NCBI RefSeq assembly: GCF_000284115.1
Contig: NC_017080.1
Span: 3,210,001 to 3,242,000 of the forward strand
DNA length: 32,000 nucleotides
Direction of reading: 5' to 3'
Source of the DNA: Phycisphaera mikurensis NBRC 102666
GTDB taxonomy: Bacteria > Planctomycetota > Phycisphaerae > Phycisphaerales > Phycisphaeraceae
Positions within the stretch are counted from its first letter, which is position 1, and each line of letters starts with the position of its first letter. The notes beneath the pieces are model-generated. The model searched no databases and was not told the DNA's origin. It saw only the letters and a program-made list of their open reading frames with translations. The position numbers were made by a program, and so were the translations under genes. Of the stretch, positions 2,564 to 25,332 are shown piece after piece.

Positions 2564-2627
2564 AGGCCTCGCCGCCCGCCCCGCCCCGCCCCGCTCCCCC
2601 ACCCAAAGCACCCACGAAGGACCGACC

Positions 2628-3401: not shown

Positions 3402-3468
3402 TCCGCCCGGACGCCGCGGCTCCGCCCGCTCGCGCCGTGCCGCCACGCCCCTGACCCACGCCAACCCC

Positions 3469-5385
<1,917 letters not shown>

Positions 5386-8627: not shown

Positions 8628-8658
8628 ACCCGCGACCGCGAGCCCTCCGAGGACGATC

Positions 8659-11021: not shown

Positions 11022-11882
11022 ATGACCCCGTACTGGAACGCGCTGAAGCAGGCCGTGCTCGACTTCTTCAACGACCGCGGCTTCGTCTGGGCGGCCGCGC
11101 TCGCCTTCTACGCGGCGCTCTCGTTCGCGCCGCTGGTGATGCTCACGCTCTACGCGACGGCGCAGCTGGGCCCGGACGTGCAGGCCCGCGTCGTCGAGCA
11201 GTTCGGCGACCTGCTCGGGGGCGCCGCGGGCGACACGCTCGGCGAGATCATCGACAACGCGGAGAAACGCGAGACCAGCGGCTTCTGGGCGACGATCGTC
11301 TCGGTCGGCGTGCTGATCTTCTCGGCATCGGGGGTGTTCGGGCAGCTGCAGGCGGCGCTCAACGCCATCTGGGACGTGCGGGCGAAGCCCGGCAACAGCA
11401 TCCTCGCCTTCCTCCGCTCGCGGCTGCTCTCGCTGGGGATGATCGGCAGCCTGCTCTTCCTGCTGCTGCTCTCGCTGGGCGCTTCCGCGGTGCTCAACGC
11501 GGTGCTCGGCGGCTTCGGCCTCGCCTGGGTGGTCAACCAGGCGGTCACGCTGGGGGTCTACCTGCTGCTCTTCGCGGCGATGTACAAGCTGCTCCCCGAT
11601 GTGCGGCTGACCTGGCGCGACACGCTGATCAGCGCCGCCGTCACCGCCGTGCTCTTCGCCGTCGGCAAGGCGGGCATCGGCCTCTACCTCGGCCGCGCCG
11701 CGGTGGGCAGCAGCTACGGCGCCGCCGGCTCGCTGATGGCCCTGCTCGTCTGGGTCTACTACGCCTCGGTCGTCGTGCTCTTCGGGGCGGAGCTCTCCCA
11801 GAGCCTCTTCGCGGAGTTCGACAAGCGCATCAAGCCCTCCAAGCACGCGGAGCGGGTGCCCGAGCAGGCTGCGGCGATCTAG
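11022..11882 (+). CDS. YihY/BrkB-family polytopic membrane protein
   Basis: 286 aa from ATG 11022; in-frame tail of track ORF 10377..11882, whose upstream part is Arg/Pro/Gly junk. Family-typical AAALAFYAALSFAPLVMLTL, multiple TM helices, GSLMALLVWVYYASVVVLFGAEL. Confidence 0.8.
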   Translation: MTPYWNALKQAVLDFFNDRGFVWAAALAFYAALSFAPLVMLTLYATAQLGPDVQARVVEQFGDLLGGAAGDTLGEIIDNAEKRETSGFWATIVSVGVLIFSASGVFGQLQAALNAIWDVRAKPGNSILAFLRSRLLSLGMIGSLLFLLLLSLGASAVLNAVLGGFGLAWVVNQAVTLGVYLLLFAAMYKLLPDVRLTWRDTLISAAVTAVLFAVGKAGIGLYLGRAAVGSSYGAAGSLMALLVWVYYASVVVLFGAELSQSLFAEFDKRIKPSKHAERVPEQAAAI

Positions 11883-11980
11883 CGCACCACGCGCAGCGTC
11901 CCGATGGCCTCTGCGGGCTTGCTCCGCCGGTTGAAGAAGCACCGCTCCGGCCCGCGAGCGGGGCAGATCGGCGCGAAGGA

Positions 11981-13264
11981 TCAGGAGCCCCCAGCGGCGA
12001 CGACGCGGCGGAGGCGAGCGATCATCCAGTCGGCGCGGCGGTCCCAGTCGAATGCCTCCTCCGCGGCGCGGCGGAGCCCGGCCTCGCCCGCGCGACGCCG
12101 CAGGCCGGCGTCGGTGGCGAGGGCGCCCATCGCGTCGGCGAAGCCGCGGGCGAGCTCCTCGGAGCTCCCGCCGCCGACCTTGAAGCCCTCGGCTCCGGTG
12201 ACGTACTCCGCCGGCCCGCCCCAATCGGTGACGACGACCGGGAGCCCCAGGGCCATCGCCTCCAGCACCACCGCCCCGCCGCACTCCTGGACGCTGGGCA
12301 GGCAGAAGGCGTCGGCACCACGCATCGTCTCCGCGGCGTCCTCCTGCCGCACGAAGCCGTGCAGGTGGAGGCGATCCGCGGCCGGGGACGACGCCGCGGC
12401 GGCGGCGAGGCGGTCTTCGTCGGTCCCGCGGCCGTAGACGTCCAGCTCCGCCTCGATGCCCCGCTCGGCGAGCAGCTCCATGGCGCGGAAGAGCACGTCG
12501 ACGCTCTTCCAGCGGACGAGCCGGCCCAGGAACGCGAAGCGGATGGGACGCTCGGCGTCGGGCTCGCGGATCGCCTCCGGCTGCCAAAGCTTCAGGTCGA
12601 CGCCGTTCTCGCAGAAGACCTCCACCTCGCCCCGCACCGCGGGCAGCGCGCGGCGGGTCCGCTCGTTCGCGGCGAGCACCAGCGTCGCCCTGCGTTTGCC
12701 GGGCAGAACGCGGTGGAGCAGAGGCGCCACCCGCATCGCCGCCCGCTTCAGCGGCCCCTGGACGCGTGCCTGGACCGCGTCGAATCCGGGCATCGGCTCG
12801 ATCGCACCGTTCAGCGGCCCCACCACCAGCGGCGCCCCCAAGCCCCAGAGCCCGCCGGGCTCGCGCGGGCTCACCGGATTGCACTCGTGGACCACCTGCA
12901 CCCGGTGCTCCGCGACCAACGCACGCGCGGCTCTGCGGAGCCGTCGCAGGAAGAGCACACGGGAGGGCGGGCGGTACAGCAGCCGGCGCAGCGGCGGCGA
13001 CAGGCGGCTGGTCCGGTACCGGTGGGCGAAGGCCCCCCCGATACCGGCGTCGGCGACGAAGTGCAGGCGATCGGCGTGCTCGGGGAACAGCTCCCTCAGC
13101 TCGTCGGCGTAGCGGTCGTGGGCGAGCAACCGCGCGTCGACGCCGCGCTCGAGGTAGCGGCGGAACCACTGGACGGGCAGGAAGGCCTCGCCGCCCGCAC
13201 GCTTGGAAGCGTTCTCGGCCACGACGAGGACGCGGAGCGGATCCTGTTGAGCGACTCCGCTCAT
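11981..13264 (-). CDS. Glycosyltransferase, GT-B fold, group 1 (GT4-like)
   Basis: 427 aa from ATG 13264 (ATGA overlap with the epimerase stop); in-frame tail of track ORF 11981..13933. Motifs: RVLVVAENASKRAGGEA, FLGRLVRWKSVDVL, EX7E-type CLPSVQECGGAVVLEAMALGLPVV. Confidence 0.8.
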   Translation of the reverse strand: MSGVAQQDPLRVLVVAENASKRAGGEAFLPVQWFRRYLERGVDARLLAHDRYADELRELFPEHADRLHFVADAGIGGAFAHRYRTSRLSPPLRRLLYRPPSRVLFLRRLRRAARALVAEHRVQVVHECNPVSPREPGGLWGLGAPLVVGPLNGAIEPMPGFDAVQARVQGPLKRAAMRVAPLLHRVLPGKRRATLVLAANERTRRALPAVRGEVEVFCENGVDLKLWQPEAIREPDAERPIRFAFLGRLVRWKSVDVLFRAMELLAERGIEAELDVYGRGTDEDRLAAAAASSPAADRLHLHGFVRQEDAAETMRGADAFCLPSVQECGGAVVLEAMALGLPVVVTDWGGPAEYVTGAEGFKVGGGSSEELARGFADAMGALATDAGLRRRAGEAGLRRAAEEAFDWDRRADWMIARLRRVVAAGGS

Positions 13265-14310
13265 GCCGCATCTCCCGCCGGGGACGCCGGCCGGCGCTCG
13301 TACCATTCCCACAGAGCCGCGAGGCCCTCGGCGACCGGCGTCCTCGGGTCGTAGCCGAGCAGCCGGCGGGCCTTGGAGATGTCGGCGCTGGTCCGTTCCG
13401 GCTCGCTCGCCGGCGCCGGCGGCGTCTCGAGGATCGCCCGCTTGCCCACCAGCTCCTCGATGATCTCGACGAAGTCGGCCATCCGCACCGGCTCGCCGCG
13501 GCCGAGGTTGACGATCTCGTAGCCCAGCGGCGTGTCCATGGCGGCGGACACGCCCGCGGCGATGTCGCCCACGTAGGTCCAGTCGCGCCACAGCTCGCCG
13601 GCCGAGAAGAGCGTGATCGGCTCGCCGCGGAAGACCCGGTCGGTGACCATGAAGGGCATCATGTCGGGCCGGGCCCGCGGGCCGTACACGCTGAAGAACC
13701 GCAGCGCCGTGAAGTTCATCCCGTGCAGGTTCGCGTAGGTGTGGCCCAGCAGCTCCACCGCCTTCTTGCAGGCGGGATATGCCGAGAGCGGCGCGTTGGA
13801 TGGATCGTCCTCGCGGAAGGGCAGCGCCGCCGACTTGCCGTACGCGCTGCTGGTGGAAGCGAAGGCGAAGACGCCGGGGGCTTTGCCGACCGAGCCGGTC
13901 CCGAGCCGGCCGTCGGCCTCCCAGGTGCGCCACGCCGCCTCGAGCAGGTGGACCGAGGCGGTGACGTTGACGTCGGTGTAGAGCGGCGTCCGGCCGATCG
14001 CGTACCGCACGTTCGCCATCGCCGCGAGGTGGGCCACCCGATCGAAGCGGTGCACCTCGAAGAGCTCATCGATGGCCGCCCGGTCGCGGATGTCGGCCTC
14101 GGCGAGGGTGAAGTTGGGGTGGTCCAGGAACCCCGCCACGTTCGCCCGCTTCTGCTGCGGGTCGTAATAGCCGTTGAAGTCGTCGAGCCCGACGACCCGG
14201 TCGCCCCGGGCGAGACGCAGCTCCACGGTGTGGCTACCGATCAGCCCCGCCGCCCCGGTGACGAGGCAGCAGGACTCTTCGGCGGCGGGGTTGGGGTTCT
14301 CCTTGGGCAT
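13261..14310 (-). CDS. NAD-dependent sugar-nucleotide epimerase, UDP-glucuronate 4-epimerase-like (SDR family)
   Basis: 349 aa. Rossmann VTGAAGLIGSH, GLDDFNGYYDP, STSSAYG, catalytic YPACK (YxxxK), RFFSVYGPRARPDM. Confidence 0.8.
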   Translation of the reverse strand: MPKENPNPAAEESCCLVTGAAGLIGSHTVELRLARGDRVVGLDDFNGYYDPQQKRANVAGFLDHPNFTLAEADIRDRAAIDELFEVHRFDRVAHLAAMANVRYAIGRTPLYTDVNVTASVHLLEAAWRTWEADGRLGTGSVGKAPGVFAFASTSSAYGKSAALPFREDDPSNAPLSAYPACKKAVELLGHTYANLHGMNFTALRFFSVYGPRARPDMMPFMVTDRVFRGEPITLFSAGELWRDWTYVGDIAAGVSAAMDTPLGYEIVNLGRGEPVRMADFVEIIEELVGKRAILETPPAPASEPERTSADISKARRLLGYDPRTPVAEGLAALWEWYERRPASPAGDAA

Positions 14311-14512
14311 CGTCAGACGCTATCGGCAGATGCGGCGGGCGGGGGTAGAAGCCGGCTCCGATTGCTTCGGCTCGGCGATCGATGCATCGGGAGCTGCCCA
14401 GCCCGTGCGTTGTGGTCCGCTCCACCAGACCCGCGTCACGAGGAGGCGGTGGCGGTGGCGGTAGCCGGGGGCGGAGCGACGGCTCGTGCGGCGAGTTCTG
14501 ATCCCGATTGAG

Positions 14513-17380
14513 TCAGTCAAACGGCACGAAGGAGAAGCCTTGGCGGATGTGGCTGTTGATGCCCGTGGCCGTCCAGCGGCTGTCCCAGGTCCCTCGCGGC
14601 CGCTCGCGAGCCAGCTCAAGGAAGCGATCGAGGCCGCCCCGCTCGTCGTGGCCGCCGAGGTACGACTCCACCCCTGCGCCTTCGTCGGTGAAGGCGGGTC
14701 CGTCGAACGGCCGCGACTCCCCGGAATCGACCACCACGTTCCCGCTGACCTCGGGGGCGTTGATCTCGTCCACGACCTGGATCGCCTCCCAGCGGTCGGA
14801 CATCTTCCACTGGTAGATGATGTTGTCTTTGACGACGGCGCGGAGATCAAAGTTGCCCATCCAATCGTGCCATACGTCCTCCTTCTCCTCGACCCGGATG
14901 GCGGCGAGGTGGGTGCCCGAGCCAACCTTCCGCGCGATGATGTTGTCCCGCACGAGCAGCCGCTCGACCGACTTGGCCTCGATGCCGAGCCCGCGCCCAC
15001 CGTTGGCGGAGGAGTCGATGTCGTCGCTCTCGAGGATCACATTCGCCGCAACCTCCGTTGGCGCATCGCACACCATCAGGGCCAAGGCGTTGCGAGCGAA
15101 AAAGTTGTTGCGGACGTTGCCGCCGGGTCGCACCTGCGCCCCATGCGAGGCGGCGCGGGTGATGATGTTGCCCTCGAGGGTCACCGGCGCGTTGAGCGTG
15201 AAGTAGTTGTAGAGGTTGTGATTGAACATCGTGCGGACAGCGCCTGGCACCTGGGCGTTCCAGCCGTTGTGGTCGAAGACGCTGTCGCGCACGACCAGAC
15301 CCGTCAGCCCGCTGGTGAAGAGGCCCTGCGCGTGGCCTCCGGCCGAGTAGGCGTCGGTGAGGATGCAGCGATTGATGGTGAGGTCGGCAAGGCCGTGCTC
15401 GCCGTCCCGCTGCCGCTGAAGCTCCGCCTGCTTGCCTCGATCGACGTCGTCGAAGGCTTTGAGTTCCATGTTGACCGAGAAGTGCGAGATCTTCAGGTCT
15501 TCGAAGAGGATGTTGCCGCCGGTCTGACGCCAGATGACTCCATAACGAAACTCGCTCGTGTCCTCTCGGCGGAAATCACGGGAGCCGGGGACGCGGGTTT
15601 GGGCCAGCAACTCGAATCCTTGAAACACGACGTGACTCACGCCGTTGCCGGTGTGACTCAAAAGGCCGGTCTCAAGGCCGCACAGAAAGACCGGGCGGTC
15701 GCCCTCGCCGTAGGTCGAAACGATCATCGGCTGCGACTCCGAGCGGCCGGACTTGTCCCAGAAGCCGAAGGGGCCGTCGAAGACGTCGCCGGCGCGGATC
15801 AGCAAGCGGTCGGGGAAGCCGTCGCGGAGCAGGCTCTTGCCGCTCTCGATTCTGGCAAGAGGCCGCTGGGGCGAGAGCCCGTCGTTGCGGTCGCTCCCGG
15901 CGGAGCTGCTGACGTAGACCAGGCGCGCGTCGCGGGCGACCGGGAAGCTCGTGAACCCAGCGTCGCTTCTGCCGGCTCCCGGCCGGGGCGAGGGCCGGCT
16001 GGGCGTCGGCTTGGGCGCGGCGGAGGGCGGCGTCGGCTTGGGCGCGGCGGAGGGCGGCGTGGGGCGGGGCGAGATGGGCTTGGCGGCGTTGACGACGCCG
16101 GGTGCCTTGGGCGCCGGCTTGGCGGCGGGCGCCGGCTCAGGAGCGGGATCGGAAGCGGGCTGGGGGGTCTCGCCGGCGACCGGTGCGGGTGCCGGCTCGG
16201 GCGTCGCGACCGCGAAGCCCGGATCGAGCGCGGGGGCGGGCGTCCCGGGTCCGGCGGAGGCCACCGGGGCGCCCGGGGCTGGCGCGGCGGGAGGCGTCGC
16301 CGCCCCGCCCGGCTGGCGGATCGCGCTGGCGGGCGCGGGACGGGTTGCGGGTTGCGGGCGGTCGGCGCGGGCGACCGCGGGCGGCGCGGCCGCGGCGGCG
16401 GGGGCGGCGGCGGGGGCGGCGGCCGATCCCGCCGCGGACGCGGCGCCGCCGTCCCCTTCCCCGGAAGCGTCGGAGGCGACACGCGGGGTCACGCGGCTGT
16501 CGGCGACACCCGGTGCGCCCAAGGATTCCGAAAGCTCCAGCGGCCGCGGCGCCGGCTCCTCCGCGGCCTCCGCCGCCGGGGTCTCGCCGGCCGGATCCTC
16601 CTCCGCCGCCACCTCCAGCGGGTGGCGTGCGACGCCAAGCACCTCCCCGTCGCGGCGCTGCATCAGCTGCAGCTCCACCACGCCGGGAGCGAGCCGGGCC
16701 AGGCGTTCCCCCTCGATCCACCAGGGCGGGCCATCGAGGACCTGGGCGAAGTCCTCGCGCATCTCCAGGCGCTGCGGGTCCCATGCGACGACGAGCACGT
16801 CCTCGCCGGGCGCGGGGGCGCCAGTCACGACGAGCTCGATCGGCTCGCTGTCGCCCAGCCGGCGTCGCTGCGGCTCCGAGGCCCCGAACGCGGCGGCGAA
16901 GGGGGCAGCGGCCGGAGCGGCCGACGCGGCGGGCGCCAAGCGGAACCCGACCGCCTCCCGCACCGTCTCGCCGGCGGCGGTGCTGGCGCTGGCCCGGAGC
17001 GTGTACGCACCCGGCGACGCACCGGCCGGCGTCCAGGGGCGGCGTGCCTCGGGCGGACCGGTCATCAGCACGGCGACGGAGCCGCCCAGGCCGGTGGCGA
17101 CGGTCTCGCCCGCCGCGTTCTCGAGCACGGCGGCGAGGCCGGTGACGCCCTCCACGCCGCGGACGCCCAGCGGCGTGTGGGCCGCGGCGGCGCCGCCTCC
17201 GGGAACCCCGACGAAGCGGAGCACCGGCGCCACGCTGGAGCCGGCTTCCGCGGAAGCGGGGGCGTCCGCGGGAGCGGCCGGCCCGGCCGCCTGGCCCGCG
17301 GCCAGGCCGGCGAGCGGCAACGACAGGCAGAGCGCGAGGCGGAGGGCGCCAACGGACCGGCGGGTGGGGGCAAGGGGCAT
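14513..17380 (-). CDS. Large secreted right-handed beta-helix protein (protein A)
   Basis: 955 aa from ATG 17380; the track ORF extends to 17566. Sec-type signal MPLAPTRRSVGALRLALCLSLPLAGLAAG. Two small N-terminal domains. Pro/Ala-rich linker of about 230 aa (about nt 15926-16609). C-terminal 470 aa (nt 14516-15925) has a beta-helix N-cap (VYVSSSAGSDRNDGLSPQRPLARIESG...LIRAGDVF) and repeated N/D-rich coils (VVRDSVFDHNGW, VRNNFFARN, LVRDNII, VVKDNIIY). Confidence 0.75.
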   Translation of the reverse strand: MPLAPTRRSVGALRLALCLSLPLAGLAAGQAAGPAAPADAPASAEAGSSVAPVLRFVGVPGGGAAAAHTPLGVRGVEGVTGLAAVLENAAGETVATGLGGSVAVLMTGPPEARRPWTPAGASPGAYTLRASASTAAGETVREAVGFRLAPAASAAPAAAPFAAAFGASEPQRRRLGDSEPIELVVTGAPAPGEDVLVVAWDPQRLEMREDFAQVLDGPPWWIEGERLARLAPGVVELQLMQRRDGEVLGVARHPLEVAAEEDPAGETPAAEAAEEPAPRPLELSESLGAPGVADSRVTPRVASDASGEGDGGAASAAGSAAAPAAAPAAAAAPPAVARADRPQPATRPAPASAIRQPGGAATPPAAPAPGAPVASAGPGTPAPALDPGFAVATPEPAPAPVAGETPQPASDPAPEPAPAAKPAPKAPGVVNAAKPISPRPTPPSAAPKPTPPSAAPKPTPSRPSPRPGAGRSDAGFTSFPVARDARLVYVSSSAGSDRNDGLSPQRPLARIESGKSLLRDGFPDRLLIRAGDVFDGPFGFWDKSGRSESQPMIVSTYGEGDRPVFLCGLETGLLSHTGNGVSHVVFQGFELLAQTRVPGSRDFRREDTSEFRYGVIWRQTGGNILFEDLKISHFSVNMELKAFDDVDRGKQAELQRQRDGEHGLADLTINRCILTDAYSAGGHAQGLFTSGLTGLVVRDSVFDHNGWNAQVPGAVRTMFNHNLYNYFTLNAPVTLEGNIITRAASHGAQVRPGGNVRNNFFARNALALMVCDAPTEVAANVILESDDIDSSANGGRGLGIEAKSVERLLVRDNIIARKVGSGTHLAAIRVEEKEDVWHDWMGNFDLRAVVKDNIIYQWKMSDRWEAIQVVDEINAPEVSGNVVVDSGESRPFDGPAFTDEGAGVESYLGGHDERGGLDRFLELARERPRGTWDSRWTATGINSHIRQGFSFVPFD
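16002..16063 (-). repeat. 27-bp tandem repeat inside the protein A linker (2 full units plus a partial one)
   Basis: GGCGTCGGCTTGGGCGCGGCGGAGGGC occurs at 16002-16028 and again identically at 16029-16055, followed by a partial unit. It encodes PTPPSAAPK PTPPSAAPK on the minus strand. Confidence 0.9.
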
Positions 17381-17609
17381 GGGGGCTCTCGGGGGCAAGG
17401 GCTCCCGTGTCTTCGGCCTCTTGACGACCCGCGTTGAGCGGGGAGCCCTCAGGATTTCCCGGATCCCCGCACGCGGGCAGCAGAACCCGCGGGCGGGTGC
17501 TTGCCGGCTCCAAGAGCGTCCCGCCAGGGTTCGGGCCGCCCCCGGCGTCCGGCGTACGCGATCCACCCCGGACGCGCGGCCCCGCCGCTCGCGAGCCCTC
17601 AGCGCCCGC

Positions 17610-18473
17610 TCAGAGGAACTGCCAGTCTCCGCTCCACCACGTCCACCCCCAAAGGCCCGCGTTGACGAGCCCGTGGCTCCAGATCACCGGACCCAGGCCC
17701 GCCCGCCGGTCCTCCGGGAGCGAGGGCCGATTGGTGTACGCGATCATCGCGCACCACACGAAGCCGCAGGCGAAGCAGCCCGCCCAGTCGCGGACGCCGT
17801 GGGAAGCCGCGAACACGACCGTCGACGCGAACGCGGAGAACAGCGTCACGGCGCCCAGCGACGTCTCGATCAGCTGCTTGGTGAGGGCCGGCGGCTCCTT
17901 CTGCGCGGCCTCGACCGACGGCCGCTCGGCGATGGCGTCGCCGAGGCCGGGCATGTCGCCGGCGAACTGCAGCAAGCCCGTGCGGGTGCCCCGCCAGCGG
18001 TGCACCGCCCGGAGCACCGCCGAGCGGACGAACAGCTCCTCGAACAGCGGCACGACCAGCGACATCCCCAGCCCGCGGGCGACGAAGGCGGCGCCGAAGG
18101 CGAGCGTGGAACCGGCCGCCAGCGGGCCGAAGACGTCCGCGTCGGCCAGCGCCACCCGCGCATCCTCCACGCCCATCAGGCGGTTGTAGCCGTGGCCCAG
18201 CAGCAGCCACGCCGCCAGCAACAGCCCCGCCGAGGGCAGCACCGTCCAGTGGAAGCGGAGGTTCAACTCCGGCGTGAGGGCGCGGTAGCGCCAAAGCAGG
18301 AACACGATGACGCCGCAGATCAGCGCGTACAGCGGCAGGTAGGCGTACGCCCCCAGCCGCCCCTCCGGCGTCAGCGCCCCGCTCACCGCGAGCCCCAGGA
18401 TGTAGACGAAGAACGGCGTCACCCGCGGGTGCCACGGGCTCGCCGCCATCCACTTGTCGAGGCGGACGAGCAC
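17610..18473 (-). CDS. CPBP-family (CAAX-protease-like) glutamic intramembrane protease
   Basis: 287-aa polytopic membrane protein. Motif 1 PLFEELFVRSAVLR (EExxxR); motif 2 FASTVVFAASHG (FxxxH); a later HG in VIWSHGLVN. GTG start at 18473 lies 9 nt after the TAA of the upstream gene; alternative ATG at 18449. Confidence 0.8.
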   Translation of the reverse strand: MLVRLDKWMAASPWHPRVTPFFVYILGLAVSGALTPEGRLGAYAYLPLYALICGVIVFLLWRYRALTPELNLRFHWTVLPSAGLLLAAWLLLGHGYNRLMGVEDARVALADADVFGPLAAGSTLAFGAAFVARGLGMSLVVPLFEELFVRSAVLRAVHRWRGTRTGLLQFAGDMPGLGDAIAERPSVEAAQKEPPALTKQLIETSLGAVTLFSAFASTVVFAASHGVRDWAGCFACGFVWCAMIAYTNRPSLPEDRRAGLGPVIWSHGLVNAGLWGWTWWSGDWQFL

Positions 18474-18482
18474 GCTGGAACA

Positions 18483-21248
18483 TTAACCCGCGGCGGCGAG
18501 GGCCCGATTGCGGTAGAACGAGACCAGGTCGCGGGCCTCGGGGAGGCCATCGAGACCGTACCCGCCGCGATCACGATTGACCGCGGCGTCGACGATCTCA
18601 TCGACCGTCTGGTAACGGGAACCAAACTCGCCGTCGAGCGCGGTGGAGCCGGTGTTGAACCGATCGATCCCGACGCCGGAGTAGTTGTTGCCGGGAGTGA
18701 AGGGTTGGTAGTCAACCCAGTTGAGCTCGTAGTTGCCCGAAGCTCGAACCGGCTGTGGTCGCGCAGGATCGGGGTTGTGGTGGATCGGACCACGCTGCTC
18801 GTGATTCGCCTGCGCGTCCGCGAACACGTTGTTGCGGACAGCGACCGGGCCGAGGCGGCGGCTGTCGATCCTGGCGTCGTGGTCGATCTGGATCTGGTAG
18901 CCGCCGCGATCTTTCCAGCGCTGGTAGCCGGTCTTGGTCTCGCCATCCCTCGGCCAGATGGTGTCGCCGGAAGCAAAGGCGGAGCTGGAAACCTCACCCG
19001 CGGGCAGGCTGATGCCAAAGGGGCTGTTGTAGAAGAAGCTGTCTCTCACGATACCGCCCTGCCGGAGCTGAGCCGCATTGGCACCGTTGTCCGAGAAGAT
19101 CGTGTTGATGATCTGAGTGTCCCGCGGGTCGAAGCTCTTCGCGTCGCCGGTGTTGAGGTACAGGCCGTGGCTGTAGGCGCTCGCGTGCGTGTTCAGGAAC
19201 GCATCGTCCCGCCACCCGTTGTGGTAGAAGACGCTGTCCTGCACCTTGATCGAGTTGTAGTTGCGGGCGTAGATGCCGTTGGCCGGCCCGCCGGTCCTGC
19301 CTGGCTCAAAATAGAGGTCGCGGTCGGGAGCGTTTGAATGCTCAATGATCGAGCGGTCGATCACGATGTCGGCGCCCTGCGACTGCGGGCCGCCGAAGCC
19401 GGACACGTCGATGTTGTTGCGGGCTCCGGAGAGCTTGCTGTCGAACAAAGTGAGCTCGCCCCCGCCCCGCCAGACGATGAAGTCCACGAAATCGTCTGGC
19501 TGCCGCTCGGGCATCGTCATGCTGATGCCGTCGAGCGTGAGCTTGCCCTCGCTTGTGCTGGGCATGAAGATGATGTTGCTCCACTTCCCGTAGGCGTCCG
19601 GGCCGACCTCCAGCGTGGCGAACCCACCCGAGCCGTCGTTGTCTGCGCTCGCCGCAGAGACGAGGCGGAGATCCGCACCCGACATCGAAAGGTTGCCGAC
19701 CGTCTTGAGACCGGGGCCCCGCTGCGGGCTGAAGTCGTAAGTCTCGCCCGGATCGAGGCGGACCTCAATGGAGGTGTAGCCGCGATCCATCGCCAAGCGG
19801 ATCACCGGGATGATGTTGGTGTTAGACCGCAGGTCGTAGCCGTCGAGCTTGGTGCCGTCAAGCAGGTAGATGCCGGTGCCGGCGGTGACCTCGCCGGCCG
19901 GCGGGGCCGGGCGGGCCGGAGCGACGGGCCGGGCAGGCTGCGTCGGCAGCACCGGCCGCGGCAGACCGGGGGCGGGGGCGGGGGCGGCCGTGCCTGACAC
20001 GGGGAAGCGCCGGGTCGGTCCCTCAAGGCTCGCATCCACCAGGCGGACATCGCCATCGCCGTAGTGGCTGATGAAGCCGACGAACTCGCCCGAGCGGCGG
20101 CCCTCGGCGCTCAAGTCGACGCTTTCGAGCTGGAGATTTCCCGAGCCCGAAGCGTGCAGATAAAACGGATTGCTGAAACCACCTCGGGCGTTCCGCTGAA
20201 CGACGAGGTCGGCCCGGCCGCCCGAACCGTCAGCGTCGATCTCCTCGATCGCGGCGACCGTGAGATCCGCACCATCGAGGAACAGGTCGTTGATGAAAGG
20301 CAGGCCCGCCTGCTCCTGCGGGTTGAGGTAGTACGTTTCGCCCGGATCCAGCGCAACAAGGATGTTTCTGTGGCCGCCGTCGAGCGCATGCCGCACGGAG
20401 GGAAGGATGTTCTCCCCGGACTTCAGCTCGAAACGCTCGCCCGACAGGAGGGCCCCATTCTCGTAGATGCCGGCCGGGGCACCCGGCTTGAGATCAATGG
20501 GCGTGCGAATCGGCTCAAGCGGCTTCGCCGGCGAGGCAACCGCGGTCGAGATCCGGGCACTGGCGATGCTGGCGTCGTTCAGCGTGACCGAGCCGGGACC
20601 GTGATTCGCCACGAACCGGATGTACTCGCCGGGCTGGTGGTCCGAAGCCGAGAGATCGACCCCATCGAGCGTCAGCTCGCCGCCCCGCTTGGAATCGATG
20701 ATGATGGGGAAGGTGCGCCGACCCGACTCGGACCGCTCCACTTCCAAACTCGCCCGGCCGCCGGAGCCGTCCGCGTCCGCCGCGGGATCGGCGGTGAAGG
20801 TCAGCTTGTCGTCGCGGAGGTACAAGTCGTTGATGACAGTCGAAGGACCACCGTCGATCGGCTGGAGGCGGTAGGTCTCGCCGGGGTCGAGCACCACCTC
20901 GATGTCCACGCGGCCCTCGTCAAGAGCGTTGCGGACGGAGGGGAGCAGGTTGGCGTCCGCCCGGATCGCGTAGCGCTCGCCCACAAGCAGTTCACCGTTG
21001 CTGTAGATGCCGGGAACGGCTGAGAACAGCTCGCGGGTTTCGAGGGGTTCGAGTGGGTTGAACATCAAATGGGGCTCGGTGGCGGCAGGAACGGCGGGTT
21101 CCGCTCTCAGGGCAGTTCCCGCACGCCGGATCGGCGACGGGGGGACAGGCACTCCAACTCTTCTTCCTTCCAATTCCAGCGTCGCGATCCTTGGCTCCAC
21201 CGGCCTCCGATCGCACCGCCGAAGGGACCGGTTTAGCAGCCATCGCAC
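18483..21248 (-). CDS. Large multi-module beta-helix protein (protein B), paralogous to protein A in its C-terminal module
   Basis: 921 aa from GTG 21248; alternative ATG at 21065. Basic N-terminus with LELEGRRV and LEPLETRELFSA strings, then three tandem ~150-180-aa modules. The C-terminal module (nt 18486-19424) aligns with protein A: KVQDSVFYHNGW / VVRDSVFDHNGW; YSHGLYLNT / FNHNLYNYF; AQLRQGGIVRDSFF / AQVRPGGNVRNNFF. Confidence 0.75.
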   Translation of the reverse strand: MRWLLNRSLRRCDRRPVEPRIATLELEGRRVGVPVPPSPIRRAGTALRAEPAVPAATEPHLMFNPLEPLETRELFSAVPGIYSNGELLVGERYAIRADANLLPSVRNALDEGRVDIEVVLDPGETYRLQPIDGGPSTVINDLYLRDDKLTFTADPAADADGSGGRASLEVERSESGRRTFPIIIDSKRGGELTLDGVDLSASDHQPGEYIRFVANHGPGSVTLNDASIASARISTAVASPAKPLEPIRTPIDLKPGAPAGIYENGALLSGERFELKSGENILPSVRHALDGGHRNILVALDPGETYYLNPQEQAGLPFINDLFLDGADLTVAAIEEIDADGSGGRADLVVQRNARGGFSNPFYLHASGSGNLQLESVDLSAEGRRSGEFVGFISHYGDGDVRLVDASLEGPTRRFPVSGTAAPAPAPGLPRPVLPTQPARPVAPARPAPPAGEVTAGTGIYLLDGTKLDGYDLRSNTNIIPVIRLAMDRGYTSIEVRLDPGETYDFSPQRGPGLKTVGNLSMSGADLRLVSAASADNDGSGGFATLEVGPDAYGKWSNIIFMPSTSEGKLTLDGISMTMPERQPDDFVDFIVWRGGGELTLFDSKLSGARNNIDVSGFGGPQSQGADIVIDRSIIEHSNAPDRDLYFEPGRTGGPANGIYARNYNSIKVQDSVFYHNGWRDDAFLNTHASAYSHGLYLNTGDAKSFDPRDTQIINTIFSDNGANAAQLRQGGIVRDSFFYNSPFGISLPAGEVSSSAFASGDTIWPRDGETKTGYQRWKDRGGYQIQIDHDARIDSRRLGPVAVRNNVFADAQANHEQRGPIHHNPDPARPQPVRASGNYELNWVDYQPFTPGNNYSGVGIDRFNTGSTALDGEFGSRYQTVDEIVDAAVNRDRGGYGLDGLPEARDLVSFYRNRALAAAG
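19425..21011 (-). repeat. Three diverged tandem protein modules within protein B (aa 80-259, 260-458, 459-608)
   Basis: Each module starts GIY(S/E/L)xG...(L/I)P(S/V)(V/I)R.A.D.G...(I)(E/L)V.LDPGETY, continues through DADGSGG(R/F)A.L.V, and ends (L)(T/Q)L(D/E)(G/S)(V/I)(D/S)(L/M)...(V)(T/R)L.D(A/S)(S/K)(I/L). Conservation is at protein level only; there is no near-identical DNA. Confidence 0.85.
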
Positions 21249-21517
21249 CCCCGGTCAACCGTGCGGACCCAGCTCGACGGACACCCCCGAGAATTCTCGA
21301 GCCCCCGCCTGGTCCTCGCAGAGCGCGTCCCGAGCCCGCCAGCGCCCTCACCCCGAGCTCGTTGTGACCCGATAGCTGCGTCGTGCAGCGTGTGCCGGGC
21401 ATCGGGCCTGGACGCGCTCCTGCAGGGCCACGCCACCTCGAAGCGGGACCGGTGCCGGCTGGATTAGCCTGCCGGCGGCGGCTCCTGCGAGAAGCCATCC
21501 CGCCTCCATTTTCTCCC

Positions 21518-22897
21518 ATGACGCAAGCCTCAGCCGAGCCCGCGACACCGGCGGCCGACGCTCCCACCGCCGTTGCAACCGGCGGGCTGCTCCTCGTCCT
21601 CCCCCAACTCTTCCACGAGCGGGACGGGGTGCTGCAGGTCGAGGCGCAAGCGGCCAACGGGCTGCGCCTCTACACCGAGCACTTCGATTGCATCACGCTT
21701 GCCGCCGGTCTGCTGCCCGAAGGCCTGCCGCTGCCGCCAAGCCTCCGGGGCGTGCCAGCGGACGCTCTGGCCGACACGCTCGGCCTCCGGCTCGTGCCGC
21801 TGCCGCGGTTCGGGGGGTACCGCCGCGGGATCCGCCGGCTGGGGCTCCGTGGCCTGCGGGCGCAGGTCCGCGGCGTACGCGAGCGGCTCGGCCCGCTGAT
21901 CGATGAACACCGCTTCCTCCAGTTCACACCCAGCCGTCATCTCGACGACTGGGGCAGCCTCGCCGCAGAGATCGCCATCGGGCGGGGCCGCCGGTACGCC
22001 GTCCACACCGATCGGGTGCAGGAGCAGATGGAGTTGGACAACGCCCGGGGGCGTGGACCGATTCCGCGGCTGCGGGCCCGCGTCTACCAACGCCTCCTGA
22101 CGAAGCGCCGGCACCGGGCGATCCGGGGGGCGGCTCTGGGGATGTTCCACGGGGCGGACTGCTTCAGCGCCTACGCGGACCTGGTACCCGAAGCCGCGCT
22201 GATCCACAACATTCACGTCGGCCGCGTGGACGCGATCGATGACGGAGCGTTCGCGAACAAGCTCGCCGCGGCGATGAACCTCGACCTGCCGCTGCGGGTC
22301 ATCTACGCGGGCCGCGTCGACGCCGACAAGGGCCCGCTGGACTTCGCCGAGGCCCTCGCCGCCGCCCTCGCCGCCGGTGGCAACGTGGAGGCCACCTGGC
22401 TCGGCGACGGCGCATCCATGGGAGCGTTGCGGCGGCGGGCGCAGGAACTCGGCCTCAACGATCGCCTGCGACTCCCGGGCTTCTGCGACGACAAGGCGGA
22501 GCTGCTCGCCGCCCTGCGCGACCACCACATCATGATGTTCTGCCACAAGGTGCCCGAGTCGCCGCGCTGCCTCATCGAGGCGCTCGTCTCGGGCACGGCC
22601 CTGCTCGGCTACGACTCCGCCTACTCGCGCGACCTCATCGGCGAGGGGAAGGATGGCCCACCCGCCGGCGTCCATGTTGCGCGCCACGACCACGCGGCGC
22701 TCGGTGCCGAGTTGGCCCGCCTCGCGGGCGACCGCCCCGCCGTGGTCCGACTCCTCCACGCGGCCCGCGAGGCTGGAAAGCACTTCAACGACGAGGACGT
22801 GTTCGCGCACCGGTGTGGCTTGCTCAAGCGGCACCTAGGCGCGGACCGCGGCCCCGCGGCCCCCGGATCGGCCACCGTCCGCGGCGAAGCCAGCTGA
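21518..22897 (+). CDS. Glycosyltransferase, group 1-like C-terminal domain
   Basis: 459 aa from ATG 21518; the track ORF begins at GTG 21383 with an Arg/Pro/Gly-rich prefix. C-terminal half: RVIYAGRVDADKGPLDF, RLPGFCDDKAELLAALRDHHIMMFCHKVPESPRCLIEALVSGTALLGYD. The N-terminal half is not recognisable to me. Confidence 0.65.
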   Translation: MTQASAEPATPAADAPTAVATGGLLLVLPQLFHERDGVLQVEAQAANGLRLYTEHFDCITLAAGLLPEGLPLPPSLRGVPADALADTLGLRLVPLPRFGGYRRGIRRLGLRGLRAQVRGVRERLGPLIDEHRFLQFTPSRHLDDWGSLAAEIAIGRGRRYAVHTDRVQEQMELDNARGRGPIPRLRARVYQRLLTKRRHRAIRGAALGMFHGADCFSAYADLVPEAALIHNIHVGRVDAIDDGAFANKLAAAMNLDLPLRVIYAGRVDADKGPLDFAEALAAALAAGGNVEATWLGDGASMGALRRRAQELGLNDRLRLPGFCDDKAELLAALRDHHIMMFCHKVPESPRCLIEALVSGTALLGYDSAYSRDLIGEGKDGPPAGVHVARHDHAALGAELARLAGDRPAVVRLLHAAREAGKHFNDEDVFAHRCGLLKRHLGADRGPAAPGSATVRGEAS

Positions 22898-23445: not shown

Positions 23446-25320
23446 ATGGATCTCCGCAGCATCCTCGCCCGGCTGCACGACTTCATCGGCGCCGAGGGCC
23501 CCAACTCCTCGTGGTGGCGGCGGGGCCTGTGGTACCTCGTCGAGCTCGGGCCGCTCACGTACCAGAAGATGCAGGAGGACAAAGCCCCGCAGATGGCGGC
23601 GGCCCTGACCTACCACACGCTCTTCTCGCTGCTGCCCACGCTCGTGCTCACGCTGGTCGTCGCGAAGTCCTTCGTCTCGGAGGCGCAGCTGCAGGACCTC
23701 AAGGAGGACACCGTCGGCTGGACGCTGCAGTGGCTGCACACGCCCGCGGGGGCGCCGGCCCCCCAGCCGCCCGAGGCCGTGGACGACCTGACCGAGGCGG
23801 GCTCCGCCGTGGCCGAGGCGCTCGGCGGCGCCGAGCCGGTGGAAGCGGTGGAGGCGGCCGTGGAGGCCCCCGCCCCCTCGCCCTTCGGCGGCTTCCTGGC
23901 GGCCGCCCGCGAGGCCGCCGAGCGGGCGCAGGCAGAGGCCCGCGAGCAGGTGGCCGAGGCGACCGGCGAGCGGCTGAAGCAGGAGTTCAACGAGACGGCG
24001 GCGAAGCTCGACCAGAGCCTCCAGGAGCTGCTCGACCGGCTGCAGAACATCAGCTTCGCCTCGATCGGGATCGTCGGCGTGCTGCTGTTCCTCTGGGGGG
24101 CCACGACGCTGCTGTCGACGATCGAGGACAGCTTCAACTTCATCCTGCGCAACCCCTCGGGCCGGTCCTGGCACATGCGCTTCGTCATCTACTTCACGAC
24201 GCTGGTGCTCGCCCCGCTGGTGCTCGTCGCGGGGCAGGTCGGCCAGGCGAAGCTCTTCTCCATCCTCGAGACCGGCAGCTTCACGACGTGGATCGTGCCC
24301 CTGGCGGCCGCGGCGACGCCGCTGGTCGCCGCGTGGGGCGTTCTGTTCGCGCTCTACAAGCTGCTGCCCAACGCCTCGATGCGGCTGGTGCCGGCCCTGA
24401 TCGGATCCTTCGTCGCCGCCTTCGCCTTGGGCGTCACGACCTGGGGCTTCGGCCTGTACGTGAGCAACGCGGCCACCACCTCGCTCTACGGGGCGATGGC
24501 CCTCCTGCCGATGTTCCTGCTGCTGCTGTGGATCGTGTGGCAGATCGTGCTCTTCGGGCTGGAGCTCGGCGCGGTGATCGAGCGGCTGCCGGCGCACCGC
24601 GAGGCGACGGCCTGGGGCCGGGCCGACCCGCTGCAGACCCGGGCCACGATGCCCGACCCGCGGATGCTCATCCCGGTCGCCGCCGAGCTGGCCAGCCGCT
24701 TCGGCGAGGGCAAGCCCGCCACGCCCAGGGAGCTGGCGCAGCGCGTCGGCCTCGCCGCCGACACGCTGCAGCTGCTGCTCGAGCGGCTCGTCGCCCGGGG
24801 CGACGCGCACCGGCTGCCCGGCGAGGAGGCGGCGTACACGCTCGCCCGCCCCGCCTCGGCCATCGGCCTGCCGGCGCTGCTCGACGAGACCTTCCTCCTC
24901 GGGCGGACGGGCGCCGAGGGCCGCACCGAGGCCCTGCTCGCCGAGCTCGACGCGGCGGAGCGGCGAGCGGTGGAGGGCCGGTCGCTCGCGGACCTGCTGC
25001 CGGCGGAGGCGGGCGCGGCGGGCTCCCGGGCCGCGGCCCGGCCGGAGCCTCCGCCCCAACGCCAGGCGCCGGCCCAGCCCCCGCCCGCGGCTCCGGCCCC
25101 GGCCAAGCCGGCGCGGCGTCGGTTCCGCCTGCCTTTTGGACGCCGCCGAGCCGCCGCGCCGCCCGCGGGGACGGAGGCGGCGGCGGCAGCAGACGCGGCC
25201 GAGCCGGCCGCCGCGTACGACACCGCCGGCGACCCGTGGGGCGACGCCGCGGCGAAGGGTGAACGACGGGACTCGAACCCGCGACCCTCGGGATCACAAC
25301 CCGATGCTCTAACCAACTGA
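23446..25320 (+). CDS. YihY/BrkB-family membrane protein with an internal acidic/Ala-rich insertion and a long C-terminal extension
   Basis: 624 aa. Family-typical MAAALTYHTLFSLLPTLVL and SLYGAMALLPMFLLLLWIVWQIVLFGLEL. About 130 aa are inserted after TM1. The C-terminal ~220 aa include a winged-helix-like stretch (PATPRELAQRVGLAADTLQLLLERLVARGDAHRL) and a Pro/Ala tail. The last 21 codons lie antisense to tRNA-His. Confidence 0.7.
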   Translation: MDLRSILARLHDFIGAEGPNSSWWRRGLWYLVELGPLTYQKMQEDKAPQMAAALTYHTLFSLLPTLVLTLVVAKSFVSEAQLQDLKEDTVGWTLQWLHTPAGAPAPQPPEAVDDLTEAGSAVAEALGGAEPVEAVEAAVEAPAPSPFGGFLAAAREAAERAQAEAREQVAEATGERLKQEFNETAAKLDQSLQELLDRLQNISFASIGIVGVLLFLWGATTLLSTIEDSFNFILRNPSGRSWHMRFVIYFTTLVLAPLVLVAGQVGQAKLFSILETGSFTTWIVPLAAAATPLVAAWGVLFALYKLLPNASMRLVPALIGSFVAAFALGVTTWGFGLYVSNAATTSLYGAMALLPMFLLLLWIVWQIVLFGLELGAVIERLPAHREATAWGRADPLQTRATMPDPRMLIPVAAELASRFGEGKPATPRELAQRVGLAADTLQLLLERLVARGDAHRLPGEEAAYTLARPASAIGLPALLDETFLLGRTGAEGRTEALLAELDAAERRAVEGRSLADLLPAEAGAAGSRAAARPEPPPQRQAPAQPPPAAPAPAKPARRRFRLPFGRRRAAAPPAGTEAAAAADAAEPAAAYDTAGDPWGDAAAKGERRDSNPRPSGSQPDALTN

Positions 25321-25332
25321 GCTACGCTCACC
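25258..25332 (-). tRNA. tRNA-His (anticodon GUG)
   Basis: Reverse complement reads G-GTGAGCG-TA-GCTC-AGTTGGTT-AGAGC-A-TCGGG-TTGTGAT-CCCGA-GGGTC-GCGGG-TTCGAGT-CCCGT-CGTTCAC-C. This gives a full cloverleaf with anticodon loop TT-GTG-AT. The His-specific extra 5' G(-1) sits opposite C73. CCA is not encoded. Confidence 0.93.

What the first reader, a model, noticed from the sequence alone, without database searches (positions are those of the whole stretch)
14513..21248. Two paralogous giant beta-helix proteins bracket a CPBP intramembrane protease inside a glycan-type gene cluster
The minus strand is transcribed in this order:
- protein B (18483-21248);
- CPBP protease (17610-18473), whose start lies only 9 nt after B's TAA;
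- protein A (14513-17380);
- UDP-GlcA-4-epimerase-like gene (13261-14310);
- GT4 (11981-13264, ATGA overlap).
A second glycosyltransferase is divergent at 21518.

A and B share a C-terminal module (DSVF-x-HNGW, (F/Y)(N/S)H(N/G)LY, AQ(V/L)R-x-GG-x-VR(N/D)-x-FF). Their N-terminal halves are unrelated: A has a Sec signal and a Pro/Ala linker, B has three tandem modules.

Beta-helix folds are typical of polysaccharide lyases, epimerases and tailspike-like depolymerases. CPBP proteases are known as maturation or immunity enzymes. Comparative genomics has also proposed some of them as dedicated sorting proteases or as EPS-locus partners. I know of no characterised system that couples a CPBP protease directly to beta-helix enzymes. 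One hypothesis is protease-dependent maturation or surface anchoring of glycan-remodelling enzymes.
Basis: partly seen in the sequence, partly recalled or inferred. Interest (0 to 1): 0.7.

Follow-up and report, generated by a model that had tools for sequence, protein, structure and literature searches.

The report
Glycan enzymes flanking a core protease
Two related secreted beta-helix sugar-polymer enzymes do sit on either side of a membrane protease gene in Phycisphaera mikurensis, but the arrangement exists only in its closest relatives, so it looks like a local gene neighbourhood and not a new protease-enzyme system.

Summary
The gene map is correct. On the minus strand lie B (860 aa; start revised to 21065), a CPBP protease 9 nt downstream, A (955 aa), an SDR epimerase and a GT4. 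A second GT4 is divergent. A and B share a right-handed beta-helix module (BLASTP E 2e-8; AF2 pLDDT 91.5; nearest solved folds are GH136, PL9/PL6 lyases and AlgE4). B carries three tandem ~175-aa modules.

The proposed protease/beta-helix coupling is not supported:
- The CPBP belongs to a Phycisphaerae-wide orthologous family with intact EExxxR/FxxxH/HxxxN motifs.
- In 80 of 80 species-level loci holding an ortholog (37-63% identity), no A or B relative lies within 10 kb, and no neighbour is conserved.
- In 80 of 80 metagenome loci holding A-module relatives, no CPBP is present. Their neighbours are often polysaccharide-synthesis genes.
- Only P. mikurensis and its nearest relatives (CPBP 75-82% identity) keep B-CPBP-A.
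- A, B and the divergent GT4 have lower GC3 (0.84-0.90) than the CPBP and core genes (0.95-0.97).
- Neither A nor B has a C-terminal sorting signal.

Best reading: a variable glycan island lying on both sides of a core protease gene. One lead emerged: PEP-CTERM genes are about 2.4-fold denser near the CPBP orthologs elsewhere.

The parts
11981..13264 (-). GT4 glycosyltransferase (GT4a), last gene of the minus-strand run
   Evidence: PF00534 at 7e-30. Weak similarity to EPS glycosyltransferases EpsH/EpsE. GC3 0.93.
13261..14310 (-). Extended SDR NAD-dependent sugar-nucleotide epimerase/dehydratase, UDP-GlcA-4-epimerase-like
   Evidence: PF01370 at 1.5e-45. No NCBIfam equivalog reaches its cut-off. 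Full-length solved relatives include 6zl6 (E 4.7e-39) and MoeE5 (E 4e-33). I identify these as UDP-GlcA 4-epimerases from memory.
14513..15970 (-). Protein A, C-terminal catalytic right-handed beta-helix module (485 aa)
   Evidence: AF2 pLDDT 91.5, pTM 0.93. Foldseek matches GH136, RG lyase, AlgE4, Pel9A, RbmB and PL6. PF13229 26.0 bits against 25.9. Family invariants are F232, H234, G236, H251 and Y254.
15971..17380 (-). Protein A, N-terminal half: signal-peptide-like N-terminus (MPLAPTRRSVGALRLALCLSLPLAGLAAG), small domains and a long Pro/Ala-rich linker
   Evidence: Translation. Orthologs keep a signal-peptide-like N-terminus. No Pfam or NCBIfam hit.
17409..17418 (-). Conserved GGCCGAAGAC block 28 nt upstream of A's ATG, in the 229-nt CPBP-A spacer
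   Evidence: It is the only block kept among four relatives in an otherwise unalignable spacer. Function unknown. A long spacer suggests A has its own promoter or leader.
17610..18473 (-). CPBP (Rce1-like) glutamic intramembrane protease, member of a Phycisphaerae-wide orthologous family
   Evidence: PF02517 28.6 bits, above the 22.4 cut-off. Invariant E145-E146-x3-R150, F221-x3-H225 and H267-x3-N271 across 36 orthologs. 122 relatives among GTDB species genomes. GC3 0.97, like core genes.
18483..19340 (-). Protein B, C-terminal part of the A-like beta-helix module
   Evidence: BLASTP against A, E 2e-8. PF13229 23.2 bits, below the cut-off. Motifs DSVFYHNGW, SHGLY and AQLRQGG.
19341..21023 (-). 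Protein B, three tandem ~175-aa modules (20511-21023, 19971-20495, 19341-19895)
   Evidence: Pairwise identity 36-48%, E 1e-28 to 1e-39. AF2 pLDDT 70-88 within the modules. Only 12 hits in 1.84 billion representatives, and the strongest (E <= 1e-30) include known B orthologs.
21024..21065 (-). Protein B N-terminus MFNPLEPLETRELFSA: conserved, no signal peptide, resembles the planctomycete LEPR-XLL motif
   Evidence: Conserved in all full-length orthologs. No NF012209 hit, although a positive control scored 18.3 bits against a cut-off of 17.
21518..22897 (+). Divergent GT4 glycosyltransferase (GT4b); the start is 21383 or 21518
   Evidence: PF00534 at 2.9e-11. GC3 0.88. Relatives carry an extra GT4 and a GT61 here.

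Best explanation
The window comes from Phycisphaera mikurensis. The region is a variable surface-glycan/exopolysaccharide island restricted to that clade. It holds GT4 transferases, a UDP-GlcA-4-epimerase-like SDR and two paralogous beta-helix carbohydrate-active enzymes, A and B. The island lies on both sides of a core gene conserved across the class, which encodes a catalytically intact CPBP intramembrane protease.

A is exported by a classical signal peptide. B probably leaves the cell by an unknown route that uses its conserved LEPLExRELFSA N-terminus.

Inferred function: A and B cut, epimerise or otherwise trim the probably uronic-acid-containing polymer made by the neighbouring transferases. 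The chemistry (hydrolase, lyase or epimerase) is unresolved.

The CPBP does something common to all Phycisphaerae and is not a dedicated partner of A or B. Its position between them reflects shallow synteny. B and the CPBP may still share a transcript.

Shown: gene identities, folds, paralogy, and the phylogenetic distribution of the adjacency. Inferred: substrates, export and the lack of a functional link.
For: Source and identity:
- B is 100% identical to an NCBI P. mikurensis protein.

CPBP orthologs across Phycisphaerae:
- 80 of 80 GTDB species loci (37-63% identity) have no A or B relative within 10 kb, even at tblastn E < 1.
- No neighbour cluster is present in more than 22 of the 80 loci.
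- The 63%-identity orthologs sit among unrelated housekeeping genes.

Close relatives:
- B-CPBP-A is kept only where CPBP identity is 75-82%.
- There the glycosyltransferase content varies (GT61 and an extra GT4 present or absent), and the genes after A differ.
- The CPBP is 75-82% identical while B is 53-67% and A 48-63%.

Reciprocal test:
- 80 of 80 metagenome loci with A-module relatives lack the CPBP family (HMM at E <= 10). A motif screen gave only spurious hits.
- 3 of 3 annotated contexts lack PF02517.
- One MAG carries the two genes on separate contigs (L038 and L092).
- GT4s are the commonest neighbours of A-module relatives, with a few flippases, acetyl- and methyltransferases and NusG-like genes.
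- Family members carry malectin or dockerin domains.

Composition:
- GC3 is 0.84-0.90 for A, B and GT4b, against 0.95-0.97 for the CPBP and core genes.

Fold:
- AF2 pLDDT 91.5, with Foldseek matches to beta-helix CAZymes.

Spacing:
- The 229-nt spacer before A (192-267 nt in relatives) suggests a separate transcription unit.
Against: - B's stop and the CPBP start are 9 nt apart. The two genes stay on the same strand with 9-80 nt gaps in most close relatives (219 nt as called in L081), so co-transcription is likely.
- Six related lineages keep the trio.
- B has no recognisable signal peptide and has an unusual conserved N-terminus, which leaves room for a dedicated processing step.
- No expression or proteomic data exist.
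- The negative synteny results cover only +-10 kb, and they do not exclude a clade-specific co-option of the core protease.
- No enzymatic activity of A or B has been tested. Sequence identity to solved enzymes is only 10-13%.
Confidence: 0.7

Rival explanations
1. One reading: the CPBP is a dedicated maturation or anchoring protease for A and/or B. The model would be the one-to-one CPBP/target pairs of the JDVT-CTERM type or the myxosortases.
For: - 9-nt B-CPBP spacing, and the trio kept in about six close lineages.
- Precedent for dedicated CPBP sorting proteases encoded next to their target: 16 of 17 adjacent for JDVT-CTERM (Haft preprint 10.1101/2023.06.07.544157; myxosortase PMC11980579).
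- B has a conserved odd N-terminus and no signal peptide.
Against: - The adjacency is absent in 80 of 80 more distant ortholog loci, and in 80 of 80 loci of A-module relatives.
- A and B lack any C-terminal signature-TM-basic signal, and B has no cysteine.
- The CPBP is conserved where A and B do not exist, so it must have another substrate.
- A, B and GT4b differ in GC3 from the CPBP.
Confidence: 0.08
2. The Phycisphaerae CPBP family works with the PEP-CTERM/exosortase protein-sorting system, like the TIGR03008 'PEP-CTERM-associated CAAX-protease-related' proteins. Its placement between A and B in P. mikurensis is incidental. This reading is compatible with the best explanation and names the protease's real partner.
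For: - The only curated family touching the CPBP is TIGR03008, at 28.6 bits over residues 16-157.
- In the 80 ortholog loci, ORFs with a PEP-CTERM-like tail are 2.4-fold denser within 4 kb than at 4-10 kb: 34 of 50 against 47% expected, p = 0.002.
- 13 loci have such an ORF within 1.5 kb.
- Exosortase-CPBP fusions are reported in PMC1569441.
Against: - The TIGR03008 score is far below its 81-bit cut-off.
- The enrichment is modest and is not corrected for shared ancestry or tandem arrays.
- The PEP-CTERM detector is a regular expression of my own.
- No PEP-CTERM ORF and no exosortase lie in the 32-kb window.
Confidence: 0.25
3. A and B are not enzymes. They are structural beta-helix surface proteins, such as adhesins or S-layer-like fibres.
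For: - Beta-helices also occur in adhesins and autotransporters; there are weak hits to Hbp, Ag43 and IgA1 protease passenger domains for B.
- B's repeated modules and A's long Pro/Ala linker would suit a stalk.
Against: - The best structural and sequence matches are CAZymes.
- A compact set of invariant polar residues (D233, H234, N235, W237, H251, Y254, R281) suggests an active site.
- Relatives lie in polysaccharide-synthesis loci and carry malectin or dockerin domains.
Confidence: 0.12
4. The CPBP is an Abi-type immunity or defence protein, and the locus is a defence or bacteriocin island.
For: PF02517 includes bacteriocin-immunity and Abi proteins (established knowledge).
Against: - No PADLOC hit for any of the five proteins tested.
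- The family is vertically conserved across a whole class with variable housekeeping neighbours.
- No bacteriocin-like gene is nearby.
Confidence: 0.03

Closest known systems
CPBP / Rce1-like type II CAAX endopeptidase superfamily (PF02517), including myxosortase MrtX and the JDVT-CTERM-associated proteases
   Same: A polytopic membrane protein with the three catalytic motifs EExxxR, FxxxH and HxxxN. It passes the Pfam threshold.
   Different: - It matches no curated NCBIfam sorting-protease family.
- It has family-specific features: N-terminal LDxWMAxxPWHPR, a conserved loop TGLLQxxxDLPxIGD, RDWxGCxACG and a C-terminal GDWQFL.
- The neighbouring proteins lack C-terminal Cys-containing sorting signals.
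- No solved relative is detectable by sequence.
TIGR03008 pepcterm_CAAX (PEP-CTERM/exosortase-associated CAAX-protease-related protein)
   Same: Weak N-terminal similarity (28.6 bits). It lies in an EPS-type neighbourhood. PEP-CTERM genes are enriched near orthologs in other Phycisphaerae.
   Different: The score is far below the 81-bit cut-off. No PEP-CTERM gene or exosortase lies in the window.
GH136 lacto-N-biosidases (LnbX, ErLnb136, TnX, BsaX)
   Same: They are the best Foldseek matches (E 1e-9 to 2e-7, TM ~0.45). The family profile matches their N-terminal ~100 residues at E 2e-18 to 1e-11, through the motif YVSSxxGDDxNDGxSxxxPxKTL...GDxxLLxRG.
   Different: - The sequence match stops after the N-terminal cap, and overall identity is 12-13%.
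- The GH136 catalytic Asp pair could not be mapped.
- GH136 depends on an LnbY chaperone (from memory), not on a protease, and no LnbY-like gene was looked for.
Beta-helix polyuronate enzymes: AlgE4/AlgG mannuronan C5-epimerases, PL9 Pel9A, PL6 lyases, RbmB, rhamnogalacturonan lyase
   Same: - Right-handed parallel beta-helix fold (Foldseek probability 1.0).
- Conserved Asp-His, His/Tyr and Arg residues, of the kind used for proton abstraction on uronates.
- A neighbouring UDP-GlcA-4-epimerase-like gene.
   Different: 10-13% identity. No shared signature motif was demonstrated, and no lyase or epimerase family HMM hit was found.
LEPR-XLL N-terminal domain of planctomycete extracellular proteins (NF012209)
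   Same: B and its orthologs begin with LEPLExRELFSA, which resembles the LE-x-R-x-LL-S/A core.
   Different: The curated model does not score B, while it does score a genuine example next to another CPBP ortholog in L004. B lacks the basic stretch that precedes the motif there.

Membership tests
CPBP / Rce1-like (PF02517) | Pfam gathering score reached | tested here: met
   28.6 bits against a cut-off of 22.4.
CPBP / Rce1-like (PF02517) | Catalytic motifs EExxxR, FxxxH and HxxxN | tested here: met
   E145, E146, R150, F221, H225, H267 and N271 are invariant or nearly so in 36 orthologs.
CPBP / Rce1-like (PF02517) | Proteolytic activity | not testable with these tools
   This needs biochemistry or genetics.
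TIGR03008 pepcterm_CAAX | Curated NCBIfam cut-off (81.05 bits) | tested here: not met
   28.6 bits, N-terminal half only.
TIGR03008 pepcterm_CAAX | Genomic association with PEP-CTERM proteins or exosortase | tested here: inconclusive
   None in the window. Density is 2.4-fold higher within 4 kb of orthologs in 80 other loci, p = 0.002 uncorrected.
Dedicated CPBP sorting protease with adjacent target (myxosortase / JDVT-CTERM type) | The target carries a C-terminal tripartite signal (Cys-containing motif, TM helix, basic tail) | tested here: not met
   A ends ...HIRQGFSFVPFD and B ends ...FYRNRALAAAG. Neither has a hydrophobic tail, and B has 0 Cys.
Dedicated CPBP sorting protease with adjacent target (myxosortase / JDVT-CTERM type) | Protease-target adjacency conserved across the family | tested here: not met
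   0 of 80 ortholog loci and 0 of 80 A-relative loci show it. It occurs only in the P. mikurensis clade.
Right-handed parallel beta-helix (PF13229, pectin-lyase fold) | Pfam score and predicted fold | tested here: met
   A's module scores 26.0 against 25.9. B scores 23.2, below the cut-off. 31 of 40 family members match. AF2 pLDDT 91.5 with beta-helix DSSP, and Foldseek probability 1.0.
GH136 lacto-N-biosidase | Sequence homology across the catalytic domain | tested here: inconclusive
   The profile match is significant (2e-18) but covers only the N-terminal ~100 residues.
GH136 lacto-N-biosidase | Conserved catalytic Asp pair; dependence on an LnbY-type chaperone | not tested
   No residue-level structural alignment was available. 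The features are recalled from memory.
LEPR-XLL domain (NF012209) | Model hit at the N-terminus | tested here: not met
   No hit for B at E <= 10. The positive control in L004 scored 18.3 against a cut-off of 17.
UDP-glucuronate 4-epimerase | Closest characterised relatives and an equivalog model | tested here: inconclusive
   No NCBIfam equivalog reaches its cut-off. Solved relatives 6zl6 (E 4.7e-39) and MoeE5 (E 4e-33) align over the full length. Their function is recalled from memory.
Anti-phage defence systems (PADLOC) | Any model hit | tested here: not met
   0 hits for A, B, the CPBP and both GT4s.

The most novel reading that the evidence does not exclude
In the Phycisphaera mikurensis clade, the class-wide CPBP protease has been co-opted to process B. 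It would be co-transcribed with B and would act on B's conserved, signal-peptide-less LEPLExRELFSA N-terminus, giving a new N-terminal, CPBP-dependent export or maturation route for a glycan-active enzyme. More broadly, this Phycisphaerae CPBP family may be an unrecognised sorting protease. Its general substrates could be PEP-CTERM or LEPR-XLL-type proteins.
Probability: 0.07. Interest if true: 0.6.

Novelty: new member of a known kind. Interest (0 to 1): 0.2.

Why it matters
If the coupling were real, it would be the first CPBP protease tied to beta-helix glycan enzymes. The comparative evidence argues that it is not.

What remains is still useful:
- An uncharacterised family of beta-helix carbohydrate-active enzymes, seen mainly in planctomycete MAGs and environmental metagenomes, with a clear candidate active site (DHNGW / HNxY / QxRxGG).
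- A lineage-restricted triple-module architecture in B.
- A sharply defined, class-wide CPBP family in Phycisphaerae. Its real partner may be the PEP-CTERM sorting system.

These are ordinary annotation gains, not a new kind of system.

Tried and rejected
- Conserved partner of the CPBP: I clustered neighbour ORFs in 80 loci. Only DUF1559 prepilin-like, HD-domain and ClpB genes recur, each in 22 loci or fewer. Rejected.
- LEPR-XLL membership of B's N-terminus: no model hit despite a working positive control.
- Defence-island reading: no PADLOC hit.
- Promoter and terminator scan of 11800-21700: nothing above shuffle expectation.
- Rfam scan of the window: only a tRNA.
- The Foldseek search of the full-length B model is of little value, because the model is poor (pLDDT 62, TM <= 0.22).
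- A loose CPBP motif regex proved too unspecific. A stricter one plus a family HMM replaced it.
- Literature: no paper holds both 'Phycisphaera mikurensis' and 'beta-helix'. The two 'LEPR-XLL' mentions are incidental.
Full report
**Observation**

The window is 72% G+C, so I used third-position GC to separate real genes from spurious ORFs.
- GT4, 11981-13264.
- SDR epimerase, 13261-14310.
- A, 14513-17380.
- CPBP, 17610-18473.
- B, ending at 18483.
- A divergent GT4 follows at 21383/21518-22897, then rnpA and a YihY/BrkB gene.

The CPBP's GTG lies 9 nt after B's TAA.

B's start needs one correction. It is most likely the ATG at 21065 (860 aa) and not 21248. NCBI's model of the identical protein is 860 aa, and every full-length ortholog begins MFNPLEPLE.... 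That identical protein also shows that the window comes from Phycisphaera mikurensis.

**The parts**

*CPBP.* It passes Pfam PF02517 (28.6 bits against 22.4). It touches TIGR03008 only weakly (28.6 bits against a cut-off of 81). An alignment of 36 orthologs shows invariant EExxxR, FxxxH and HxxxN motifs. It also shows family-specific blocks: LDxWMAxxPWHPR, RDWxGCxACG and a C-terminal GDWQFL.

*A and B.* They are true paralogs over a ~485-aa module. BLASTP gives E 2e-8. F-D-H-N-G-W, H-N-x-Y and Q-x-R-x-G-G are invariant or nearly so in 40 family members.

*A's module.* It folds with high confidence into a right-handed beta-helix (pLDDT 91.5).
- The nearest solved folds are GH136 lacto-N-biosidases, rhamnogalacturonan lyase, AlgE4/AlgG epimerases, Pel9A, RbmB and PL6 lyases. 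TM scores are about 0.4-0.47 and identity is 10-13%.
- The family profile also matches GH136 by sequence (E 2e-18), but only over the N-terminal ~100-residue cap.
- 31 of 40 family members match PF13229, and a few carry malectin or dockerin domains.

*Export signals and domain layout.*
- A has a signal-peptide-like N-terminus, as do its orthologs, followed by a long Pro/Ala linker.
- B has three tandem ~175-aa modules with 36-48% pairwise identity. These modules are almost confined to B orthologs: 12 hits in 1.84 billion representatives.
- B has no signal peptide.
- B's conserved N-terminus LEPLExRELFSA resembles the planctomycete LEPR-XLL motif, but the curated model does not score it, although a positive control does score.

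*SDR.* Its full-length solved relatives include 6zl6 and MoeE5. I recall these as UDP-GlcA 4-epimerases, which hints at a uronic-acid-containing polymer.

**Is the CPBP/beta-helix adjacency conserved?**

*Starting from the CPBP.*
- The CPBP has at least 138 homologs, mostly annotated as Phycisphaerae.
- It has 122 relatives among GTDB species genomes.
- In the 80 best loci (37-63% identity, up to 10 kb flank each side), tblastn with A and B finds nothing, even at E < 1. The same method detects A-module relatives at 26-40% identity with E 1e-45 to 1e-75, so the negative result is meaningful.
- Clustering all neighbour ORFs gives no conserved partner. The most frequent are DUF1559 prepilin-like, HD-domain and ClpB genes, each in 22 of 80 loci or fewer.

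*Close relatives.*
- Only metagenomic contigs whose CPBP is 75-82% identical keep B-CPBP-A: L081, L082/83, L084, L087/88 and L089, with L090 continuing the locus.
- The 63%-identity orthologs (L001, L085) do not keep it.
- Within the clade the glycosyltransferase content varies. A GT61 and a second GT4 are present in relatives and absent here. The genes after A also differ.
- The CPBP is much better conserved (75-82%) than B (53-67%) or A (48-63%).

*Starting from the beta-helix module.*
- 172 metagenome relatives carry the VFDHNGW motif.
- None of the 80 best loci (30 of them at least 8 kb long) has a hit to an HMM of the CPBP family at E <= 10. A stricter motif screen gave only spurious hits.
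- Three annotated contexts lack PF02517.
- One of those contexts is a classic EPS cluster with WecG, GT4s, a deacetylase and a pyruvyl transferase.
- A Pfam census of 98 neighbouring ORFs finds GT4s (4 ORFs) as the commonest family. A few flippases, acetyl- and methyltransferases and NusG-like genes (2 ORFs each) follow.
- In MAG P01_H01_bin.18, the CPBP ortholog (L038) and an A-module relative (L092) lie on different contigs.

**Composition and spacing**
- GC3 is 0.95-0.97 for the CPBP and the surrounding core genes. It is 0.84-0.90 for A, B and the divergent GT4.
- The B-CPBP gap is 9-80 nt in most close relatives (219 nt as called in L081), which is compatible with co-transcription.
- The CPBP-A spacer is 192-267 nt. 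It is unalignable except for one GGCCGAAGAC block 28 nt before A's ATG. This suggests that A has its own control region.
- Consensus promoter and terminator scans were uninformative.

**Interpretation**

The most economical reading is a variable, clade-specific glycan island lying on both sides of a core, class-wide protease gene. A and B are most likely exported enzymes that remodel or degrade the polymer made by the neighbouring transferases. Whether they are hydrolases, lyases or epimerases is open. The invariant D/H/H/Y/R set fits proton-abstraction chemistry on uronates, but conserved acidic residues (E157, D158, D206, D233) also allow a hydrolase.

Known CPBP sorting proteases act on C-terminal tripartite, Cys-containing signals and can be encoded next to their target. 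Examples are the myxosortases and the JDVT-CTERM type, where 16 of 17 pairs are adjacent. A and B have no such tail, and B has no cysteine. A dedicated link limited to this clade, for example through B's odd N-terminus, cannot be excluded. I put it at under 10%.

**A lead on the protease's real partner**

In the 80 ortholog loci, ORFs ending in a PEP-CTERM-like tail are about 2.4-fold denser within 4 kb of the CPBP than at 4-10 kb.
- 34 of 50 such ORFs lie within 4 kb, against 47% expected (p = 0.002). This is not corrected for shared ancestry or tandem arrays.
- 13 loci have one within 1.5 kb, and most lie convergently downstream.

Two further points fit this lead: the weak TIGR03008 similarity and the reported exosortase-CPBP fusions (PMC1569441). 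Together they suggest that the family may belong with PEP-CTERM sorting. No PEP-CTERM ORF lies in the window itself.

**Verdict**

The component annotations are supported, but the coupling hypothesis is not. The finding is a new member of known kinds: an uncharacterised beta-helix CAZyme family and an uncharacterised CPBP subfamily. Interest is low to modest.

Noticed in passing
L001-L080 (for example L051 1367-2530, L059 2022-3188, L043 10821-11885, L014 11926-14923, L019 11935-15294): ORFs with PEP-CTERM-like C-termini cluster near the CPBP orthologs. Density is 2.4-fold higher within 4 kb than at 4-10 kb, 13 of 80 loci have one within 1.5 kb, and most lie convergently downstream. None occurs in the window. 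This suggests the CPBP family may belong with PEP-CTERM sorting.
   Followed up: partly
window 17409-17418 (-): A GGCCGAAGAC block 28 nt upstream of A's start codon is the only conserved element in the CPBP-A spacer across four relatives. It may be a regulatory or leader element.
   Followed up: no
window 25258-25331 (-): A tRNA gene (Rfam 67.8 bits) overlaps, antisense, the last ~60 nt of the YihY/BrkB ORF at 23446-25320.
   Followed up: no
window 10-5385 (+): A type IV pilus assembly cluster: PilM, PilN, PilO, an unassigned 257-aa protein and a T2SSE/PilB-type ATPase with an MshEN domain.
   Followed up: no
window 19341-21023 (-): B's ~175-aa repeated module is almost lineage-restricted. There are only 12 hits at E <= 1e-3 among 1.84 billion cluster representatives, and the strongest (E <= 1e-30) include known B orthologs.
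   Followed up: yes
L004 ~2411-3262 (-), next to the CPBP ortholog at 3966-4847 (+): A large RTX-repeat protein with a genuine LEPR-XLL N-terminal domain (NF012209, 18.3 bits) is divergently adjacent to a CPBP ortholog. It is the only such case in the 80 loci.
   Followed up: partly
window 14513-15970, 18483-21065 and 21518-22897: A's beta-helix module, B and the divergent GT4 have GC3 of 0.84-0.88, against 0.95-0.97 for core genes including the CPBP. They are compositionally atypical, either through more recent acquisition or through weaker codon bias.
   Followed up: partly
L081, L082/L083 and L089 compared with window 21066-21517: Close relatives carry a GT61 gene, and in L082 a second GT4, immediately upstream of B. 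P. mikurensis lacks these. Glycosyltransferase content therefore varies between close relatives, as is typical of surface-polysaccharide loci.
   Followed up: partly
window 11153-11557 (-) and 8012-8656 (-): Two unannotated ORFs (135 and 215 aa) have GC3 of 0.97-0.98 in otherwise 'empty' spacers, so they may be real small genes.
   Followed up: no
window 29464-30432 (+): A DUF1559 / prepilin N-methylation-motif protein. Homologs recur near the CPBP orthologs in 21-22 of 80 loci, probably because the family is abundant in Planctomycetota.
   Followed up: no
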